DNA of 64,000 bases, from positions 26,668-90,667 of the IMG/VR virus record IMGVR_UViG_3300032116_000088; one strand, given 5' to 3'. Shown in pieces: positions 40,319 to 60,680 of the stretch; position 1 is the first letter of the stretch; every line of letters starts with the position of its first letter. The stretch is from a virus. The position numbers and the translations under genes are program-made. The notes under the pieces are model-generated. The model did no database searches and was not told where the DNA came from. It saw only the letters and a list, made by a program, of their open reading frames with translations.

Positions 40319-42361
40319 ATGACAGTTTTTTCATTTAAATTAGCAGAAGAATTCGTTGCCGGATACCGGGGTAAGAAACCACCGTTTGGTTATGCCGATG
40401 TTGCGGGGAATTCAGTAGGGGAAATAACATTCCTGAGAACGTATAGTCGTTTGAAAGAAGATGGAACCAAAGAAACATGGGCTGATGTATGTGAGCGTGT
40501 TATTAATGGCATGTATTCATTACAGAAAGACCACGCGAAGCAAAATCGGTTGCCCTGGAGCGATGCAAAAGCTGCGGCCAGTGCAAAAGAAGCGTATGAC
40601 CGTTTATATAACCTAAAATGGACACCACCAGGCCGTGGATTATGGGTAATGGGTACGGAAATTGTAAACGTTCAGAAGAATTCGGCAGCGTTGCAGAATT
40701 GTGCATTTGTTAGCACCAATGAGATGACCAAGAATAATCCAGCAAAACCATTTGGATTCCTAATGGAAGCCAGCATGTTGGGTGTAGGTGTAGGATTTGA
40801 TGATAAGGGTGCTGATAAAGGGTTTGATATATATGAGCCGGGAGCAGTACAAGAATACGTAATTCCAGATACGCGTGAAGGTTGGGCGGATTCTACAATG
40901 TCGTTGATTAATTCATATTTGAAACCAGACCAGCCATCATATGAATTTAATTATGATGATATTAGGCCATATGGGGCATTAATTAAAACATTTGGTGGGA
41001 CCGCATCCGGGCCAGAGCCATTGATTAAATTGCACAAGAATATAAAGAAGATGTTTGATGGACGCAAGGGCGAGAAGTTAAGCCGTGTTGATATTGCCGA
41101 TATTGGTAATATGATTGGCGTGTGTGTAGTTTCCGGAAACGTTCGCCGTTCAGCGGAATTGTTGATTGGCCGTATTGATGATGAGGATTTCCTAAACCTA
41201 AAAAATGGTGAGGTATTCCCTGAACGTAATTCATATGACTCTGAAAATCCAGGATGGGCATGGATGTCTAATAATAGCGTAGATGTTTGTGTTGGGACAG
41301 ACTTTGACCCTATTGTTGATGGGATTGTACGCAACGGAGAACCCGGCGTTATATGGATGGATGTAAGCCGTAAATACGGTCGTCTAGTTGACGCTCCTAA
41401 TAATAAAGACTGGCGTGTAGTTGGATATAATCCTTGTGCAGAGCAGTCTTTGGAGTCTTTTGAGATGTGTACTTTGGTTGAAACATATTTAAATCGCCAT
41501 GAGTCTCTCGAAGATTTCAAGAGGACGTTGAAGTTTGCTTATTTATATGCAAAAACAGTTACACTACTCCCTACACACTGGGAAGAAACTAATGCTATCA
41601 TGCAGCGCAATAGGCGCATTGGTACCAGCATGTCTGGTGTAGCTAACTTTGCTGACAATAAAGGTATGCAGACTCTCCGTGAATGGATGGATGAAGGCTA
41701 CAAGATTGTCCGTGACTATGATATTAAGTACAGTGAGTGGCTAGGCATTCGTGAGTCTATTAAGATGACTACAGTTAAGCCTTCTGGCACTGTGTCTATC
41801 TTAGCTGGAGAATCTCCAGGTGTTCACTGGCCTAGTGGTGGTAAGTTTTTCCTGCGTGCAATTCGTTTTGGAAACAATGACCCTATGTTGCCACTATTTA
41901 AGATGGCTAACTATACTGTAGAGCCAGCTAGTGAGTCGCCAGACACTACGTCTGTTGTGTTCTTCCCTATCAAGACTGACGCTAAACGTTCTGAAAAAGA
42001 AGTGTCTATCTATGAAAAGATGAACCTAGCTGCTACTGCTCAACGTTGGTGGTCAGACAACTCTGTGTCTGTTACTGTCACCTTTGACGCTGAAGAAGAA
42101 AAGAATGATGTCGGAACTGTGCTTCATATGTATGACGGCCAGTTGAAGACTGTAAGCTTCCTCCCTATGGGTAATCATGTGTACCCACAGATGCCTTACA
42201 CTCAGATAACTGAGGAGGAGTATAATGAATACGCTATGCAATTATTCCCAATTGATTTCGTAGGAGTGTACCAGGGTATGGCTGCAGACGCTGTTGGTGA
42301 AGCTTATTGCACCACAGATGCCTGTGAAATTAAACTAATCAAAGATAATACTAAGGAATAA
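40319..42361 (+). CDS. nrdJ: Class II (B12-dependent) ribonucleoside-triphosphate reductase
   Basis: PPGRGLW, NCAF, GNVRRSA, NPCAEQ, TTVKPSGTVS, C-terminal C..DAC. Confidence 0.92.
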   Translation: MTVFSFKLAEEFVAGYRGKKPPFGYADVAGNSVGEITFLRTYSRLKEDGTKETWADVCERVINGMYSLQKDHAKQNRLPWSDAKAAASAKEAYDRLYNLKWTPPGRGLWVMGTEIVNVQKNSAALQNCAFVSTNEMTKNNPAKPFGFLMEASMLGVGVGFDDKGADKGFDIYEPGAVQEYVIPDTREGWADSTMSLINSYLKPDQPSYEFNYDDIRPYGALIKTFGGTASGPEPLIKLHKNIKKMFDGRKGEKLSRVDIADIGNMIGVCVVSGNVRRSAELLIGRIDDEDFLNLKNGEVFPERNSYDSENPGWAWMSNNSVDVCVGTDFDPIVDGIVRNGEPGVIWMDVSRKYGRLVDAPNNKDWRVVGYNPCAEQSLESFEMCTLVETYLNRHESLEDFKRTLKFAYLYAKTVTLLPTHWEETNAIMQRNRRIGTSMSGVANFADNKGMQTLREWMDEGYKIVRDYDIKYSEWLGIRESIKMTTVKPSGTVSILAGESPGVHWPSGGKFFLRAIRFGNNDPMLPLFKMANYTVEPASESPDTTSVVFFPIKTDAKRSEKEVSIYEKMNLAATAQRWWSDNSVSVTVTFDAEEEKNDVGTVLHMYDGQLKTVSFLPMGNHVYPQMPYTQITEEEYNEYAMQLFPIDFVGVYQGMAADAVGEAYCTTDACEIKLIKDNTKE

Positions 42362-47913: not shown

Positions 47914-49854
47914 TTACTTACTTAGATTACGCTTGATGGCAAGTCTAACAATTGCTTTAGCAAGAGTTAGAAGTGAACTGCCGTCTTCAAGTGGCACAAC
48001 AATTTCTGAGTTGTGACCGTTGATTGTACGCTTCTCACCTGCTTCTCTACGACGCTGCATGAACTCTTCACCGTACTGTCTGTACTCATCAATAAAACCT
48101 AGGCTAGTGATAACACCATTGCGTCTAAGGTCAGCAATAATCTTGTCACCTTCTTTGCCATACCATTCACCATCAGTAATAGTGATAAGTATCTTGATAG
48201 CACGTGTGCTGTTGGCTAGAACATACTTAGCATACTTAAGTGCATCTTCTGGCTCTGTACCACCAGAGTCACTAGTAATTTTCTTCATAGGCTTAGCACG
48301 TTCGTCTGCTGAGTAAAGCAACTTAGCATCGTTGTCGAATGTAACTACTGTAGTAGATGCGTCTATCTTATCTAGTGAACGCTTGATAGCCCAAGTAGAG
48401 TCAAAGGCAGAGTCTCTAGTCCAAGACATTGAACCAGATACATCTAGAAGAATAACTGCTTCGATATCTGTAACGTCATCTCTACCGTTGTCCCACTGGT
48501 CAAAGCACTCATCAGCATCAACACCTGTAGCATAACGTTGAACATTAAGTCTACCAACTTCAACCTTGCGATTCCAACCTGGGTCAAAGTCAGCCTTGAT
48601 TAGTGATAGTTGATTGGCAAATGATTTGACTTGTGCTACAACATCAGCAGGCACAGCAGCAAGTTGCATATGATAACCTTTCTCTGGCTTAGCAACATAC
48701 TTGCTACTAAGTTGTGGGTCACCATTGAACTGTGCTATAAGGTCATTAACATCATCACGCAACAACTCTTTGATTTGGTTGTTATGCTTTTTGATATTGT
48801 TAACAGCATTATCAATATGACCTGTGCCTGCTGAACTACTTGTGTCATCTTGTGGTTGACCAGGTTGACCAGGTTGACCAGGCTGATTACCAGGCTGACC
48901 AGGACTCTTGCCAGGAACTTTAGGACCACAACCACCGTTAGAACCAGTAGGCTCAGGGTCACCTTCTGCTTCTTGGTCACCGTCTGGATTAGTAGGTTGA
49001 GCATTACGTTTCTTGACAATCTTGTCAATGATACGGTCTTGACCAGCCTTGTTAGTAGTCTTGGACTTGTCACTAGACTTAGCACCAGGATGACCACAAG
49101 TACCACCAGTAGGTGATGGTGGACGCACAGGTTCATTAGTATTTATCTTGAGTAACTTATGTAGTCTCTCGATAAGTTGCATAGCTAATGGTATGTGTGC
49201 ACTGTTAGACAGGTTAAGTATTGTATAGTCATCAATTATAGAACCAATCTCTGCAACAATACTCTGGTCAACAAATGCATCCTTGATTACTTTACGTAAG
49301 TCATCAGGTAAAAATGTTCTACCGTGTATCAAAGGATAAGCATAGGGTATAGAGTTTGTATCCTTCAATAACATCTGAGTGATAGAAGCAGTAAACCAAT
49401 GCTTGACGTTACTATACTTAGCATCTAAGAATACTTCAAGACGCTGGTCTTCAAGTATGTTGAATGCTATGTTGTATTCATTGTTTTTGACCCACTTAAC
49501 TAGATTGCTACTAGACCGTGGAGTAAACAATATGTGACCAACTTCGTGTAATGAAATACCCTTGACTGCGATAATTGAATCGGGGTCAGTAAGGTCACCC
49601 ATTTCATCTTCGTTGAACCAAATGTTTTCAGCATCAGACCAGGCTTCGATATGACGCATATGATTTGGATTTTTAGCACTTGTTGACATTGATACGTGAA
49701 TAAGTCTAGCAGTAAGAGCACTAGCAAATTTACTTACGACTGAAGTCATACGTGCATTGCGTTGCTCTGTTGTATCAGTAGGCAACATATTGTTGACAAC
49801 TTCTACATACTCAGACTCAAACAGGGCATCAATATCGGCTATATCTTTTTCCAT
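47914..49854 (-). CDS. vWA-domain protein with N-terminal HExxH domain (MoxR partner)
   Basis: HEVGH..FT, NILED.R.E, QPG repeat linker, MIDAS DVSGSM, GGT, ITDG. Confidence 0.85.
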   Translation of the reverse strand: MEKDIADIDALFESEYVEVVNNMLPTDTTEQRNARMTSVVSKFASALTARLIHVSMSTSAKNPNHMRHIEAWSDAENIWFNEDEMGDLTDPDSIIAVKGISLHEVGHILFTPRSSSNLVKWVKNNEYNIAFNILEDQRLEVFLDAKYSNVKHWFTASITQMLLKDTNSIPYAYPLIHGRTFLPDDLRKVIKDAFVDQSIVAEIGSIIDDYTILNLSNSAHIPLAMQLIERLHKLLKINTNEPVRPPSPTGGTCGHPGAKSSDKSKTTNKAGQDRIIDKIVKKRNAQPTNPDGDQEAEGDPEPTGSNGGCGPKVPGKSPGQPGNQPGQPGQPGQPQDDTSSSAGTGHIDNAVNNIKKHNNQIKELLRDDVNDLIAQFNGDPQLSSKYVAKPEKGYHMQLAAVPADVVAQVKSFANQLSLIKADFDPGWNRKVEVGRLNVQRYATGVDADECFDQWDNGRDDVTDIEAVILLDVSGSMSWTRDSAFDSTWAIKRSLDKIDASTTVVTFDNDAKLLYSADERAKPMKKITSDSGGTEPEDALKYAKYVLANSTRAIKILITITDGEWYGKEGDKIIADLRRNGVITSLGFIDEYRQYGEEFMQRRREAGEKRTINGHNSEIVVPLEDGSSLLTLAKAIVRLAIKRNLSK

Positions 49855-49878
49855 ATATATTCTCCTATATAAGTTGGC

Positions 49879-49911
49879 GGGTAGCGGCAACCATTACCAT
49901 TGCCGCTACCC
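49879..49911. terminator. 12-bp perfect hairpin between AAA and vWA genes
   Basis: GGGTAGCGGCAA / TTGCCGCTACCC. Confidence 0.5.
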
Positions 49912-49917
49912 TAGAGT

Positions 49918-51276
49918 TTACTCGTTGTAGCCGTTAAGTGGCACACCGAGTTCTTGTGCGATAACATCTACGTTAGCATCAAAGGTCATCTTGATTGCTT
50001 CACGCTCACCGTCATCCTTAGGGAAGTTGTTGAGCATAGATGATACAGCAAAGGATAGGTTAAGACCCTTAGCCTGCTCTATGAAGTTGAGCAAGATACG
50101 GGTAGACATAGGCTTGCTGAACTGGTCAGTAGTCTTGCTTGCTTCACGAATGCTGTGTGCAAACTGTAGCAGAGCAGATGAAGGTATGAACTTAGACTCA
50201 AGTTCGATGTCGTAATCGAACTCTAACTTAGGTTGCATACGGTCATACAAGGCATCATCTTGACGTTGAACACCTGTATAACCCTGACCTGTGTTCTGGT
50301 CAGCAATGAACAGACACTCAGGATGAACCTTGATGACCTGGTTTAGCTGGTCAACAATAAGTTCACGCTCATTAAGAACACGAAGCAAGAGAGATGCAGC
50401 CTTAGGCTGTAGTCTGCTCAACTCGTTAATCAGAATGACTGATGGCTGTTGAATTGCTGTAGCAAACTGACTGTACTTCCACTTGGTGCTGTTGCCTACA
50501 CCTGTAGGAACAAAGCGACCGTGTAGAACAGTCTGGTCAATCTGCTGTGTACACTCTACAACTACGAACGGTATATTGCGAATGTGTGCATAGTGCTCTG
50601 CAGCACTAGACTTACCTGTACCGGCTGGACCAGTAAGCAAGACAGTTCGTTGGTTATCTCTTGCAAAGTCAAATACTTGACTCTCAAGAACACCATCGAA
50701 CACTCGCTCAATGTGTAGCCTACCGGCTGGAACAGTGATTGGTGTCTCGTTATCGGAACTTAACACGCTACTGTTGGTATATTGCATGGGTGTCTCCTGT
50801 ATAGGAAGTTCAATCTCTTGAACTTGTGGGTCAGGCTGTGGCGGAGTTGCTACAACCTGTTGCACCACTGGCTGTGGTGTGGCTTGTGTTACTTGAACAA
50901 CTGCGTTCTCATATACTGCTAGAGAACTTGGGTCATTCATAGTCTGCTCTACCAGAGTATTGAACTCATCTAGAGCAGAATTACTTGTCACATTGCTAGC
51001 AGTTAGTTTCTTACCTAACTTAACTAGGAACATTGACGGTGTAATTGTGGAGTTGATTATCCTGTCTTCTGCAGGAGTAATCTTTAGTGATACTGGGCTT
51101 CCGACTAGCATCTCATTATCTTCAATGAGAACGTCGCCTTCAACCCAAGCACCAGCACGACCTCGTCCTTCTCCAAGCCTAGAGAAAATACGAACATTAC
51201 CATCTGCTGTTGGCGTAATGGCTACAGTTCGTAGTTCTCCTTGACTGTTTTGGGACTTCATCATTGCTGCATACAT
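49918..51276 (-). CDS. MoxR/CbbQ-like AAA+ ATPase
   Basis: GPAGTGKS, ILINELSR, N.G.GY.G....D.AL.DR, STR. Confidence 0.85.
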   Translation of the reverse strand: MYAAMMKSQNSQGELRTVAITPTADGNVRIFSRLGEGRGRAGAWVEGDVLIEDNEMLVGSPVSLKITPAEDRIINSTITPSMFLVKLGKKLTASNVTSNSALDEFNTLVEQTMNDPSSLAVYENAVVQVTQATPQPVVQQVVATPPQPDPQVQEIELPIQETPMQYTNSSVLSSDNETPITVPAGRLHIERVFDGVLESQVFDFARDNQRTVLLTGPAGTGKSSAAEHYAHIRNIPFVVVECTQQIDQTVLHGRFVPTGVGNSTKWKYSQFATAIQQPSVILINELSRLQPKAASLLLRVLNERELIVDQLNQVIKVHPECLFIADQNTGQGYTGVQRQDDALYDRMQPKLEFDYDIELESKFIPSSALLQFAHSIREASKTTDQFSKPMSTRILLNFIEQAKGLNLSFAVSSMLNNFPKDDGEREAIKMTFDANVDVIAQELGVPLNGYNE

Positions 51277-51671: not shown

Positions 51672-51689
51672 AATATTACCTTTCATAGT

Positions 51690-52372
51690 AATAAAACCTA
51701 GTAGCGACTTGCTACTAGGTGTATCTGTATGACTATACAGAACTTTACAGCCTAAGATGTTTGTGTCGGCTAGGCTTATCACACCGACTAGGTCAATGCC
51801 CCGTGGCTACACTGTAGTCTGACTTATACAAGCCCATCTATATAAGATGCTGTTGACTTGTGTAGCCACGGAACATTAGAAGAGTTTAACCATCTAGTTT
51901 GCGCCCAATACTCAATATGCTAGTTACTCTTTACTCACTAAGGTTCACATATATCTAACGTCTTCAATTATCCGAATAGAAGCGAAGCGCCTATCTATAA
52001 GCCAAGCCTCCCACTTGAACGGGCTTTGATTGACTGGCCTAGCCACACCAGATACTATACATTGCTGTATAGAATTCTATGCAGTCTTTCACAACTAAAC
52101 ATAGACTCGAAAGTTTCTGCCTAGTTGTGAAAGTTTATACACTTAACTGCTTAGTGTTTGACTTTACGTTGTCATCGTTTGTAGTTTTACGAGGAATTGT
52201 TATGCTTTGGAATTCCACCTAATGCACACCCACCGACTCTACTCATTACTGAGTGCCAGCTGCTACCTTTACGTACGGGGCATCACGCTCGATGGTTTTT
52301 GTTTACGGAGAGCCATACCAAAAAACTCTCCCCAGTGCTCATTTATGACTTACGTCAAGGGGGATGCACCCC
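51690..52372 (-). ncRNA. Candidate large structured ncRNA containing a tmRNA-message-like segment
   Basis: ~680-nt gap without a credible gene; 12-bp stems at 51801-51871 and 52086-52133; two H-type pseudoknots; 3' hairpin 51696-51720 followed by U-rich tract. Confidence 0.6.
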
Positions 52373-52384
52373 ATCTAAGTATTG

Positions 52385-59321: not shown

Positions 59322-59840
59322 ATGTTCATTGAACCAAGCCCATGGGACCACAACAAGCCATGGAAACCAAATCCCTATGATAAAGACCACTGGAAAAAAG
59401 AATGGCACAAAGAACCAGTAAAAAAGCCAATCACCATTGATGACCTTTTTCCACGTCTAGACCGCCTATCAATTGGATGGTCACCACTTCTTGACCAACT
59501 CAAAGAAGTAACCTCAAACAAACCATCTTACCCACCATACGACATTGTTTTATTGGAAGATGATGTTACCCTACTTAACATTGCTGTAGCAGGTTTTGAT
59601 AAGAAAGAACTCAAAATTACTTTCCAAGACTCAACTATTACTATTCTAGGTAAGAAGGAAGATAAGCAACGTGGTGACGTAGTGTATCAAGGTATTGCTG
59701 GCCGTGACTTTAGGTTACAGCTTGCAGTAGCAGAATACTGGGAAATCACTAATGCCACTATTGAAAACGGTATGCTGACTATTCAATTCAATAAAGAACT
59801 ACCTGAAGAAAAGAAACCTAAAGTAATTGACATCAAGTAA
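59322..59840 (+). CDS. Small heat-shock protein (Hsp20/IbpA-like)
   Basis: YPPYDI, AVAGF, QGIAGRDF, A..ENGMLTI, PEEKKPK.IDI; start at ATG59322 after AAGGAG. Confidence 0.92.
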   Translation: MFIEPSPWDHNKPWKPNPYDKDHWKKEWHKEPVKKPITIDDLFPRLDRLSIGWSPLLDQLKEVTSNKPSYPPYDIVLLEDDVTLLNIAVAGFDKKELKITFQDSTITILGKKEDKQRGDVVYQGIAGRDFRLQLAVAEYWEITNATIENGMLTIQFNKELPEEKKPKVIDIK

Positions 59841-59854
59841 ACTTGGTGTATACT
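59827..59854 (+). promoter_or_regulatory. Promoter for the RNA gene cluster
   Basis: TTGACA-16 bp-TATACT, followed by GC-rich hairpin 59861-59886. Confidence 0.55.
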
Positions 59855-59892
59855 AGAAGCCTGGGGGAGATTTCGGTCTCCCCCAGAGCCTA

Positions 59893-59972
59893 GGGCCTAA
59901 AATGGTGTCGATTGCACAGCAAAGCCGCAAGTCGGAGTGTGTAAGACCACAGTTCGATTCTGTGTAGGTCCA
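59893..59972 (+). ncRNA. Stand-alone tmRNA tRNA-like domain (mini-tmRNA)
   Basis: Acceptor GGGCCUA/UAGGUCC with G3.U70 and A73; stemless D-loop AAAUGGUGUCGA; 7-bp stem; GAC then T-arm CACAG-UUCGAUU-CUGUG. Confidence 0.8.
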
Positions 59973-59975
59973 CGA

Positions 59976-60047
59976 TGACCTTTAGCTCAATGGCAGAGCA
60001 GAGAGCTGTTAACTCTAAGGTTCCTGGTTCGAGTCCAGGAAGGTCAG
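59976..60047 (+). tRNA. tRNA-Asn(GTT)
   Basis: Full cloverleaf: TGACCTT/AAGGTCA, GCTC/GAGC, loop CT-GTT-AA, CCTGG-TTCGAGT-CCAGG, G73; no encoded CCA. Confidence 0.93.
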
Positions 60048-60062
60048 CGATAGGAGAATAAA

Positions 60063-60173
60063 ATGGCAAAAGTAAAAGGTGCCCGTAATGACAATCGTAC
60101 CAATGGAAAAGCTTTTAAGAAGCGTCCAAAGGTATTCGATAAGATTAAACGGAAACTAGTAAACAAGGTATAA
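60063..60173 (+). CDS. 36-aa highly basic peptide (not in ORF track)
   Basis: AGGAG SD; MAKVKGARNDNRTNGKAFKKRPKVFDKIKRKLVNKV. Confidence 0.6.
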   Translation: MAKVKGARNDNRTNGKAFKKRPKVFDKIKRKLVNKV

Positions 60174-60174
60174 G

Positions 60175-60348
60175 ATGGCTACTTACGAATATAAGTGTGA
60201 AGTATGTAACTCTATTGTTAGCGTTACTAACCCCATATCTGAAGAAATTAAAATACCAAAGTGTCTGGCTTGTAAAAAAGATATGGTTCGTATATTTAAT
60301 GCCCCAGGGTTATCCTTTAAAGGAATAGGTTGGGGGTCTGACAGGTGA
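60175..60348 (+). CDS. FmdB-family zinc-ribbon protein (not in ORF track)
   Basis: MATYEYKCEVC...CLAC..DMVRIF.APG.SFKG.GW. Confidence 0.85.
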   Translation: MATYEYKCEVCNSIVSVTNPISEEIKIPKCLACKKDMVRIFNAPGLSFKGIGWGSDR

Positions 60349-60680
60349 TTCCAGAAACAATTAAAATAGGAACACAAGTTTGGACTATCGTTGAACATAC
60401 TTCCAAAGAAGACGGTATGCTCTACGAAGACAACTACGGGTATACGCTAGAACGTCGTAATATGATTGTTTTAGATAAAGACGCATCAGATACCCGTAAG
60501 CAACAGGTATTGATGCACGAGATTCTACATGCAATCAGGTTTACTTTTTTTACTGGAAATAAGATGGCACCTAAGTTAAGCTTTGAAGATACAGAGCATT
60601 ATTTTATTGGAATGTATGAAGAAACCATTTTAATGGTATTTAAAGACAACCCTCAGCTTATAAAGTATCTTTTATCTTAA
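60345..60680 (+). CDS. HExxH metallopeptidase-like protein
   Basis: VLMHEILHAI...E. Confidence 0.65.
   Translation: MIPETIKIGTQVWTIVEHTSKEDGMLYEDNYGYTLERRNMIVLDKDASDTRKQQVLMHEILHAIRFTFFTGNKMAPKLSFEDTEHYFIGMYEETILMVFKDNPQLIKYLLS

What the first reader, a model, noticed from the sequence alone, without database searches (positions are those of the whole stretch)
59893..59972. 80-nt 'mini-tmRNA': a complete tRNA-like domain with no mRNA-like domain
Seen: acceptor stem GGGCCUA/UAGGUCC with a G3.U70 wobble and A73. The D-region AAAUGGUGUCGA has no stem. A 7-bp helix (UUGCACA/UGUGUAA) is capped by only 19 nt, then GAC precedes a perfect T-arm. Established: G3.U70 is the AlaRS determinant, and a stemless GG..UCGA D-loop plus GAC before the T-arm are tmRNA/SmpB-binding hallmarks. 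Normal tmRNAs carry roughly 250-300 more nt (pseudoknots, tag ORF) at the position of this short loop, and message-less tmRNAs are mainly known from protist mitochondria. Inference: an alanylatable SmpB partner that either titrates host SmpB, rescues ribosomes without tagging, or works with a message supplied in trans. It has its own promoter and sits 3 nt before tRNA-Asn.
Basis: partly seen in the sequence, partly recalled or inferred. Interest (0 to 1): 0.92.

Follow-up and report, generated by a model that had tools for sequence, protein, structure and literature searches.

The report
Phage tag-less mini-tmRNA gene
This freshwater phage carries a real, conserved 80-base gene that copies only the alanine-accepting, tRNA-like end of the bacterial ribosome-rescue RNA (tmRNA); the type was already reported once, in mycobacteriophage DS6A, where it blocks the host's rescue-and-tag system, so this is a further, unannotated member of a known but little-studied phage RNA family.

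Summary
Window 59893-59972 (+) has a 7-bp acceptor stem with G3.U70 and A73, a stemless GG..UCGA loop, a 7-bp helix closed by 19 nt, GAC and a canonical T arm. It lies 3 nt before tRNA-Asn.

It is a real RNA gene. I found at least 67 homologues in IMG/VR phage contigs (56 distinct sequences, locus G+C 29-69%). In these, 98% of cells pair and 18 of 22 pairs show compensatory changes. G1-C72, G2-C71, U70 and A73 stay essentially fixed.

It is not new in kind. A covariance model built without DS6A hits the published 'TLD only' tmRNA of mycobacteriophage DS6A end to end (70 bits). That RNA was reported to inhibit E. coli tmRNA (Mao 2009, as cited in PMC4131195 and PMC11915505).

ARAGORN and Rfam miss the window's copy. 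Rfam's tmRNA model scores two siblings above its cut-off.

Most likely it is charged with alanine by the host, binds host SmpB, and competes with host tmRNA so that stalled chains escape the degradation tag.

I found no phage SmpB, no full tmRNA, no message supplied in trans and no conserved mini-ORF. Expression, charging and SmpB binding are untested.

Earlier follow-ups of this scan reached the same reading on other phage genomes.

The parts
59827..59854 (+). Sigma-70-like promoter (TTGACA, 16 nt, TATACT) overlapping the hsp20 stop codon. It is the probable start of the small-RNA transcript.
   Evidence: 11 of 12 matches. The same site is kept in hsp20-group relatives. Sequence match only; no transcript start is shown.
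59861..59886 (+). Leader hairpin: 9 bp (CUGGGGGAG/CUCCCCCAG) with the loop AUUUCGGU, 6 nt upstream of the RNA.
   Evidence: Relatives keep a hairpin at this place with a different sequence. Its role is unknown; it may be a processing or stability element of the precursor.
59893..59972 (+). TLD-only (tag-less) tmRNA gene, 80 nt. Acceptor stem 59893-59899 with 59965-59971 (G3.U70); A73 at 59972. CCA is not encoded.
   Evidence: (R1 95.5 bits, the only hit in the 90.7-kb genome).
59900..59911 (+). D-loop analogue AAAUGGUGUCGA: GG plus UCGA, with no D stem.
   Evidence: It matches the conserved GGaUUCGAC of the RF00023 consensus and has the same layout as the GenevaB15 tmRNA. Its invariance within the family is partly forced by the search patterns I used.
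59912..59944 (+). Helix 2a analogue: 7 bp (59912-59918 with 59938-59944), closed by a 19-nt cap. The cap has an A-rich 5' bulge, the 3-bp hairpin CCG-CAAGU-CGG (59925-59935) and AG.
   Evidence: All 7 helix pairs and all 3 hairpin pairs change on both sides. A31, A32 and A46 of the cap are kept in 52-54 of 56 distinct sequences.
59945..59964 (+). GAC linker (59945-59947) and T arm CACAG-UUCGAUU-CUGUG (59948-59964).
   Evidence: GAC is nearly invariant. RNAalifold pairs GUC of the D-loop analogue with GAC, as in tmRNA helix 2a.
59976..60048 (+). tRNA-Asn(GUU), 3 nt downstream. Probably co-transcribed, so that RNase P cutting at its 5' end frees the 3' side of the mini-tmRNA.
   Evidence: the only canonical tRNA in the whole phage genome. 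18 of 45 family loci have same-strand tRNAs nearby, some only 2-4 nt away.

Best explanation
It is a phage gene for a tag-less, TLD-only tmRNA of the DS6A type.

Proposed pathway:
1. The RNA is transcribed from the promoter at the end of hsp20, together with tRNA-Asn.
2. It is trimmed like a tRNA: RNase P at the 5' end, then trimming and CCA addition at the 3' end.
3. It is charged with alanine by host AlaRS through G3.U70 and A73.
4. It is bound by host SmpB through the GG..UCGA loop and GAC.
5. As Ala-RNA.SmpB.EF-Tu it competes with host tmRNA for SmpB and for ribosomes stalled on broken mRNAs.
6. Because it has no resume codon or tag frame, the nascent chain receives at most one alanine and no SsrA degron. 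Host rescue-and-tag is therefore blunted during infection.

What is shown: the gene, its structure, its family and its tmRNA ancestry. What is inferred: processing, charging, SmpB binding and the effect on tagging. The inference rests on the conserved identity elements and on published work with DS6A-like and TLD-only RNAs.
For: Structure and conservation:
-.
- G1-C72 is kept in 54 of 55 distinct sequences, G2-C71 in 55 of 55, G3.U70 in 53 of 55, and A73 in 56 of 56. The neighbouring pairs 4-7 covary freely. This is the pattern expected if alanine charging is under selection.

tmRNA ancestry:
- Same layout as the GenevaB15 tmRNA, including UUGC.../...GUAAGAC, and as the RF00023 consensus.
- blastn of the 3' halves lands in annotated tmRNA genes.
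- RF00023 scores two siblings at 51 bits against a cut-off of 47.

Same family as DS6A:
- R1, built without DS6A, scores NC_023744.1:28478-28557 at 70 bits, E 1e-16, over model positions 1-80, with the same A-rich cap and CCG hairpin.

Published function:
[quoted passage not shown] - A TLD-only tmRNA accepts the peptide in vitro (Shimizu and Ueda 2006, as described in PMC3895274).

Dependence on host factors:
- No SmpB gene in this phage or in 5 related near-complete genomes.
- No full tmRNA.

tRNA-like maturation:
- Same-strand tRNAs lie 2-4 nt away in several loci, and CCA is encoded in 7 of 45 members.
Against: - Nothing here shows that the RNA is made. The one metatranscriptome contig that lies on the locus stops at 59867.
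- Charging and SmpB binding are inferred from sequence only.
- According to PMC4131195, inhibition by the DS6A-like RNA did not need chargeability. Ribosome entry may therefore be dispensable.
- Two family members have A3-U70.
- The strongly conserved cap is not explained by this model.
- The host is unknown, so no SmpB or tmRNA partner could be examined.
Confidence: 0.55

Rival explanations
1. Pure SmpB sponge. The RNA only sequesters host SmpB in solution and shuts trans-translation down. It does not need to be charged or to enter ribosomes.
For: [quoted passage not shown] The SmpB-contacting regions (GG..UCGA, GAC) are the most conserved parts. Two members carry A3-U70.
Against: A sponge would not need G1-C72, G2-C71, G3.U70 and A73 to stay fixed in 53-56 of 55-56 distinct sequences while pairs 4-7 drift. 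Nor would it need an encoded CCA in some members. The conservation of the D-loop analogue is inflated by my search patterns.
Confidence: 0.2
2. A true tagging tmRNA in disguise. Either the cap is a six-codon message (GCC GCA AGU CGG AGU GUG UAA in the window), or a separate phage RNA supplies the message in trans, for example the 705-nt non-coding stretch at 51680-52384 on the minus strand.
For: 30 of 56 distinct sequences have an in-frame stop six codons after the A-rich bulge, and 20 of these start with GCN. Another first-stage note (e1-6077508) reads a tag-like frame at 52135-52226. Tags of only 2 aa exist in some bacteria (PMC11915505).
Against: Mini-ORF:
- The UAA is the closing U-A, U-A, G.U of the helix. 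It becomes CAA or other triplets as the pairs covary.
- 26 of 56 distinct sequences, DS6A among them, have no such frame.
- The 'peptides' vary in the way helix strands vary.
- The hairpin pairs covary, which points to intramolecular pairing.

Message in trans:
- The 705-nt stretch has no blastn match in 10 related records. Five of these are nearly complete genomes (92-100%), and four of those five carry the mini-tmRNA.
- It has no Rfam hit.
- It pairs with the cap no better than shuffled sequence does (54 of 300 shuffles do as well).
- No complement of the cap occurs elsewhere in the window.
Confidence: 0.04
3. An unusual decoding tRNA: class II-like, intron-bearing or D-armless.
For: At a relaxed 70% threshold ARAGORN calls it tRNA-Leu(aag). 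It calls one GC-rich sibling tRNA-Ser(cga).
Against: - No tRNA call at default settings, with or without introns.
- No Rfam tRNA hit at E up to 10.
- The supposed anticodon loop has 3-5 nt, and its length and sequence vary across the family.
- The conserved letters are those of tmRNA.
Confidence: 0.02
4. An alanine-charged, tRNA-like RNA used off the ribosome or as a decoy. Examples: a donor or competitor for Ala-tRNA-dependent transferases, bait for a host nuclease or defence system that senses tmRNA, or a processing signal for the neighbouring RNA.
For: The cap motif (A-rich bulge plus CCN hairpin) is conserved across very different phages and has no role in the other models. No conserved protein partner lies nearby.
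Against: The conserved non-acceptor elements are the tmRNA-specific ones. A family member has a published effect on tmRNA. The RNA occurs both with and without neighbouring tRNAs, so it is not merely a processing signal.
Confidence: 0.12

Closest known systems
'TLD only' / CDS-less tmRNA of Mycobacterium phage DS6A (tmRNA Website tmID 11587; NC_023744.1:28478-28557; Mao et al. 2009 as cited in PMC4131195 and PMC11915505)
   Same: Both are 80 nt with the same architecture: a 7-bp acceptor stem with G3.U70 and A73, a GG..UCGA loop, a 7-bp helix, an A-rich bulge, a CCG-loop-CGG hairpin, a linker and a T arm. My model, built without DS6A, aligns to it end to end at 70 bits.
   Different: The phage and host are different: an uncultured 90.7-kb freshwater phage with 40% G+C, against a 69% G+C siphovirus of the M. 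tuberculosis complex. The genomic setting also differs: after hsp20 and fused to tRNA-Asn, against the gap between gp33 and the DNA polymerase clamp gene. The window's copy has GAC where DS6A has CAC. No experiment exists for this copy.
Standard one-piece tmRNA (Rfam RF00023), e.g. the 400-nt tmRNA of Mycobacterium phage GenevaB15
   Same: Acceptor stem with G3.U70 and A73. A 12-nt NNNUGGUNUCGA loop. The start and end of helix 2a (UUGC.../...GUAAGAC). T arm. No anticodon arm.
   Different: About 320 nt are missing: all pseudoknots, the resume codon and the tag frame. RF00023 does not report the window's copy.
Message-less mitochondrial tmRNA of jakobids (Rfam RF02544; Jacob et al. 2004, cited in PMC11915505) and the ~65-bp plastid forms
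   Same: They too are reduced to the tRNA-like domain and lack a tag frame. They are presumed to act with SmpB.
   Different: They are organellar products of genome reduction, paired with a nuclear SmpB. The phage RNA works beside an intact host tmRNA, so it is a competitor, not the only rescuer. RF02544 gives no hit here.
Engineered TLD-only tmRNA fragments used in vitro (Shimizu and Ueda 2006, as described in PMC3895274)
   Same: Acceptor stem, T arm, D-loop analogue and helix 2a closed by a loop. They accept the nascent peptide with SmpB and EF-Tu.
   Different: They are laboratory constructs. The natural family has a conserved cap of its own.

Membership tests
tmRNA (Rfam RF00023; tRNA-like domain features) | Acceptor stem with G3.U70 and discriminator A73 (alanine identity) | tested here: met
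   In the family, G3.U70 is kept in 53 of 55 distinct sequences and A73 in 56 of 56.
tmRNA (Rfam RF00023; tRNA-like domain features) | D-loop analogue GG..UUCGA(C) without a D stem, GAC before a canonical T arm, and no anticodon arm | tested here: met
   No anticodon arm by ARAGORN or the Rfam tRNA model.
tmRNA (Rfam RF00023; full molecule) | mRNA-like domain with a resume codon and a tag reading frame | tested here: not met
   Only 33 nt lie between the D-loop analogue and GAC. The apparent six-codon frame is not conserved.
tmRNA (Rfam RF00023; full molecule) | Pseudoknots PK1-PK4 | tested here: not met
   There is no room for them in the 19-nt cap.
tmRNA (Rfam RF00023; full molecule) | Score at or above the Rfam gathering score (47 bits); ARAGORN tmRNA call | tested here: not met
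   The window's copy gives no hit. Siblings in L096 and L020 score 51 bits, above the cut-off.
tmRNA (functional definition) | Charged by AlaRS and bound by SmpB | not testable with these tools
   Needs biochemistry. No phage SmpB is present.
DS6A-type TLD-only (CDS-less) phage tmRNA | About 75-82 nt: the tRNA-like domain plus helix 2a closed by a short cap, with homology to the DS6A element | tested here: met
   R1, built without DS6A, gives 70 bits and E 1e-16 over positions 1-80 on DS6A, and 95.5 bits on the window.
DS6A-type TLD-only (CDS-less) phage tmRNA | Inhibits host tmRNA when expressed | not testable with these tools
   Reported for the DS6A-like RNA only.
Permuted two-piece tmRNA (RF01849-51, RF04321) | Gene circularly permuted, with the 3' acceptor piece before the 5' coding piece | tested here: not met
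   The order is collinear, 5' acceptor strand to 3' acceptor strand. No Rfam hit.
Mitochondrial tmRNA (RF02544) | Match to the family model | tested here: not met
   No hit at E up to 10.
Canonical tRNA (RF00005) | Cloverleaf with an anticodon arm and a 7-nt anticodon loop | tested here: not met
   No RF00005 hit at E up to 10. ARAGORN makes no call at default settings, even with introns allowed. It makes a call only at the 70% threshold, and that call needs a 5-nt 'anticodon' loop.

The most novel reading that the evidence does not exclude
The RNA is not merely an SmpB sponge but the core of a phage-specific, tag-free ribosome-rescue route. Charged Ala-RNA enters stalled ribosomes with host SmpB. 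The conserved A-rich/CCN-hairpin cap makes a specific contact that stands in for the missing message, and the chain is released untagged. The conserved 36-aa basic peptide encoded just after tRNA-Asn may help. Phage proteins made from damaged mRNAs would then escape SsrA-directed proteolysis.
Probability: 0.2. Interest if true: 0.75.

Novelty: new member of a known kind. Interest (0 to 1): 0.45.

Why it matters
Trans-translation is the main ribosome-rescue and protein-tagging system of bacteria, and some phages are known to depend on it.

A small RNA that many unrelated phages carry, and that standard annotators miss, would be a compact and portable tool for switching that system off or diverting it.

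The family data add one point to what is published for DS6A. The alanine identity elements are under strong purifying selection. This argues that the RNA works charged, probably on the ribosome, and not only as a passive SmpB trap.

The conserved cap gives a defined target for mutagenesis.

The covariance model built here could be used to annotate these genes.

Tried and rejected
1. Mis-typed patterns. Searches had one N too many between GAC and GTTC, and one search also had N10 where N8 was needed. Both whole-collection scans of bacterial genomes are therefore void. The nine 'hits' were chance matches or tRNAs. One search was too strict and found nothing.
2. Bacterial genomes. R1 found nothing in 151 sampled genomes of one class (reached from an Actinomycetes MAG) at E 1e-5, under strict filters. 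This is a small sample and not evidence of absence.
3. Expression. 19 DNA runs, mostly freshwater metagenomes, hold half or more of the sampled words of the locus. One RNA run gave a 159-nt contig over 59709-59867 and a tRNA-Asn-like piece, but nothing over the mini-tmRNA. This is no evidence either way.
4. Message in trans: no support.
5. Mini-ORF in the cap: not conserved.
6. Conserved neighbouring protein. Clustering of ORFs within 3 kb of 68 family loci gave only lineage-specific neighbours (hsp20, NlpC/P60, tail genes). No translation factor appeared.
7. Phage SmpB: none.
8. Cultured relatives. blastn finds the full element only in DS6A. The nearest cultured phages share about 31% identity in the AAA-ATPase, so the host is unknown.
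9. The weak Rfam YrlA match (24.8 bits against a cut-off of 69) merely spans the T arm and the neighbouring tRNA.
10. Mao et al. 2009 is not held in the library. Its content is cited second-hand.

Full report
**What is there**

- a 7-bp acceptor stem, GGGCCUA/UAGGUCC, with G3.U70, followed by A73;
- a 12-nt stretch, AAAUGGUGUCGA, with no stem of its own;
- a 7-bp helix, UUGCACA/UGUGUAA, closed by 19 nt;
- GAC;
- a canonical T arm, CACAG-UUCGAUU-CUGUG.

The 19-nt cap also contains a 3-bp hairpin, CCG-CAAGU-CGG, preceded by an A-rich bulge. Three bases later tRNA-Asn(GUU) begins. It is the only canonical tRNA in the whole 90,667-bp phage genome.

A TTGACA-16-TATACT site overlaps the stop codon of the upstream hsp20 gene. 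A 9-bp hairpin sits between that site and the RNA.

ARAGORN, with or without introns, and Rfam, at gathering score and at E up to 10, report nothing for the 80 nt.

**Is it real?**

The genome is an IMG/VR virus record with direct terminal repeats, rated 100% complete.

- One of ten relatives found through the hsp20 protein carries a homologue, with compensatory changes in every helix.
- Pattern scans of IMG/VR then gave many more. The strict pattern alone matches 60 contigs. Seven further members have a diverged D-loop analogue.
- On a MAFFT alignment of 37 sequences, 98.3% of cells pair and 17 of 22 pairs change on both sides. No shuffle of 500 reaches the observed covariation. Slid controls pair in 32-47% of cells.
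- RNAalifold, given no structure, returns the acceptor stem, the 7-bp helix and the T arm. It also pairs GUC of the D-loop analogue with GAC.
- A covariance model (R1) collected 69 copies, 56 of them distinct, and gave the same picture: 98.0% of cells paired and 18 of 22 pairs with double changes.

So this is a structured RNA gene under selection. It is carried by phages whose loci range from 29% to 69% G+C.

**What kind of RNA?**

The letters that never change are informative.
- G1-C72 is kept in 54 of 55 distinct sequences and G2-C71 in 55 of 55.
- U70 and A73 are each kept in 56 of 56. G3.U70 is kept in 53 of 55; the other two have A3-U70.
- The neighbouring acceptor pairs 4-7 drift freely.
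- These fixed positions are the alanine identity set of tRNA-Ala and tmRNA (established knowledge).

The remaining conserved blocks (UGG-U-UCGA, GAC, GUUCRAUUC, UCCA) coincide with the upper-case positions of the Rfam tmRNA consensus.

Set beside a genuine 400-nt phage tmRNA with an annotated tag (GenevaB15), the two ends have the same layout. The helix even starts and ends the same way, UUGC... and ...GUAAGAC.

Further links to tmRNA:
- blastn of the 3' halves of family members lands inside annotated tmRNA genes of mycobacteriophages and crAss-like phages.
- The whole-genome search tool scores two siblings with RF00023 at 51 bits, above the 47-bit cut-off, with the model aligned from end to end over 83 nt. 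These places are the R1 hits.
- The window's own copy, whose T stem is further from the consensus, is not reported.

What is missing is everything between the two strands of helix 2a: the pseudoknots, the resume codon and the tag frame.

**Prior art**

Hudson, Lau and Williams (2014) list 'Mycobacterium phage DS6A (TLD only)'. [quoted passage not shown] R1 contains no DS6A sequence. It hits NC_023744.1:28478-28557 at 70 bits (E 1e-16) over model positions 1-80. The architecture is the same, down to the A-rich bulge and the CCG-loop-CGG hairpin.

The window's RNA is therefore a member of the DS6A type. The kind is known and one member has been tested. Neither paper describes the breadth of the family or its conserved cap. 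Text searches for other names of this RNA found nothing further.

Earlier follow-ups in this scan reached the same conclusion on other phage genomes. I arrived at it independently before reading them.

**Context**

- The phage lacks SmpB, and so do five related near-complete genomes. It has no full tmRNA. Any partner protein must come from the host.
- The RNA sits in different places in different lineages: after hsp20 (19 loci), among tail genes (about 11 loci), inside large tRNA arrays (for example 24 tRNAs in L020), and between gp33 and the clamp gene in DS6A.
- No protein family travels with it across lineages.
- In 18 of 45 loci, same-strand tRNAs lie nearby, sometimes 2-4 nt away. Seven members encode CCA after A73. 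Both facts fit tRNA-style maturation.
- The host is unknown. The nearest cultured phages share about 31% identity in an AAA-ATPase. The locus recurs in many freshwater metagenomes.

**How it most likely works**

Shown: the gene, its fold, its tmRNA ancestry and its family.

Inferred:
1. It is co-transcribed with tRNA-Asn.
2. RNase P and CCA-adding enzyme process it.
3. Host AlaRS charges it.
4. Host SmpB and EF-Tu bind it.
5. It competes with host tmRNA.

Because a TLD-only RNA can accept the peptide in vitro (Shimizu and Ueda 2006, via PMC3895274), the charged RNA probably enters stalled ribosomes. With no resume codon, the chain gets one alanine and no degron.

The strict conservation of the alanine identity set argues for this and against a pure SmpB sponge. 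The sponge stays a serious rival, because the published inhibition did not need chargeability.

The conserved cap is unexplained by either model. It may correspond to the bulge and the first pairs of helix 2b in the tmRNA consensus, but that is only a resemblance.

**Rivals tested**

*A message supplied in trans.* Another first-stage note reads a tag-like frame at 52135-52226 on the minus strand.
- That 705-nt non-coding stretch has no blastn match in ten related records. Five of these are nearly complete genomes (92-100%), and four of those five carry the mini-tmRNA.
- It has no Rfam hit.
- It pairs with the cap no better than shuffled sequence does.
- No complement of the cap lies elsewhere in the window.

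That UAA is the helix's closing U-A, U-A, G.U, and it changes with the pairs. DS6A and 25 others lack the frame.

*An odd decoding tRNA.* There is no 7-nt loop, and the loop varies in length and sequence.

**Limits and errors**

- Two whole-collection scans of bacterial genomes were wasted on mis-typed patterns. I cannot say whether bacteria or prophages carry the family. A sample of 151 genomes was negative.
- No expression evidence was obtained.
- Part of the invariance of the D-loop analogue is imposed by the patterns used to find members.
- Mao et al. 2009 could not be read.

**Verdict**

- The reading as a message-less tmRNA is supported.
- The mechanism is plausible by analogy with a tested family member but is untested here.
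- The novelty is modest, because the phage type is already published.

Noticed in passing
window 59861-59886: A 9-bp leader hairpin lies between the promoter and the mini-tmRNA. Relatives of the hsp20 group keep a hairpin at the same place with a different sequence, which suggests a conserved processing or stability element of the precursor.
   Followed up: partly
window 60063-60173: A 36-aa, very basic ORF with a strong ribosome-binding site begins 15 nt after tRNA-Asn. It is conserved (67-83% amino-acid identity) in at least 8 related loci, all of which carry the mini-tmRNA. It is absent from the 9 hsp20 loci without the RNA. It has no Pfam or PHROG match. An FmdB-type zinc ribbon (60175-60348) and an HExxH / M78-like protein (60345-60680) follow it.
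   Followed up: partly
L005:3631-3770; also L100, L011, L006: A structured non-coding stretch of about 130 nt ending in CAGUCCACG follows the mini-tmRNA in L005 and L100. In L011 and L006 it follows hsp20 directly. Its 3' end resembles an acceptor 3' strand. It is not identified.
   Followed up: no
L024:3640-3722; L078 and L165 (minus and plus strand): A second anticodon-less, tRNA-like element lies just upstream of the mini-tmRNA in a few contigs. It has a 7-bp acceptor-like stem, a T arm, and a pyrimidine loop (UCUCCUUUC) that resembles the anti-Shine-Dalgarno sequence. ARAGORN does not call it.
   Followed up: no
window 51680-52384 (minus strand): A 705-nt gene-free, hairpin-rich stretch in the early arm. 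It has no Rfam match and no blastn match in ten related phage records. It appears specific to this phage or is fast-evolving.
   Followed up: partly
L004:3490-3684: A relative without the mini-tmRNA has a different structured stretch of about 190 nt between hsp20 and tRNA-Asn. The slot behind the hsp20 promoter seems to hold interchangeable small RNAs.
   Followed up: no
L135:1282-1360: ARAGORN annotates this GC-rich family member as tRNA-Ser(cga). Some mini-tmRNAs may therefore be mislabelled as tRNAs in databases.
   Followed up: no
window 59709-59867: An aquatic metatranscriptome holds a 159-nt contig identical to the end of hsp20 through the promoter and into the leader hairpin, and it ends there. 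It may be read-through from hsp20 or DNA carry-over.
   Followed up: no
window 40319-42361, 47914-51276: Class II ribonucleotide reductase and a CobS/CobT-like AAA+ and VWA pair. These are common auxiliary genes of aquatic phages and give no host assignment.
   Followed up: no
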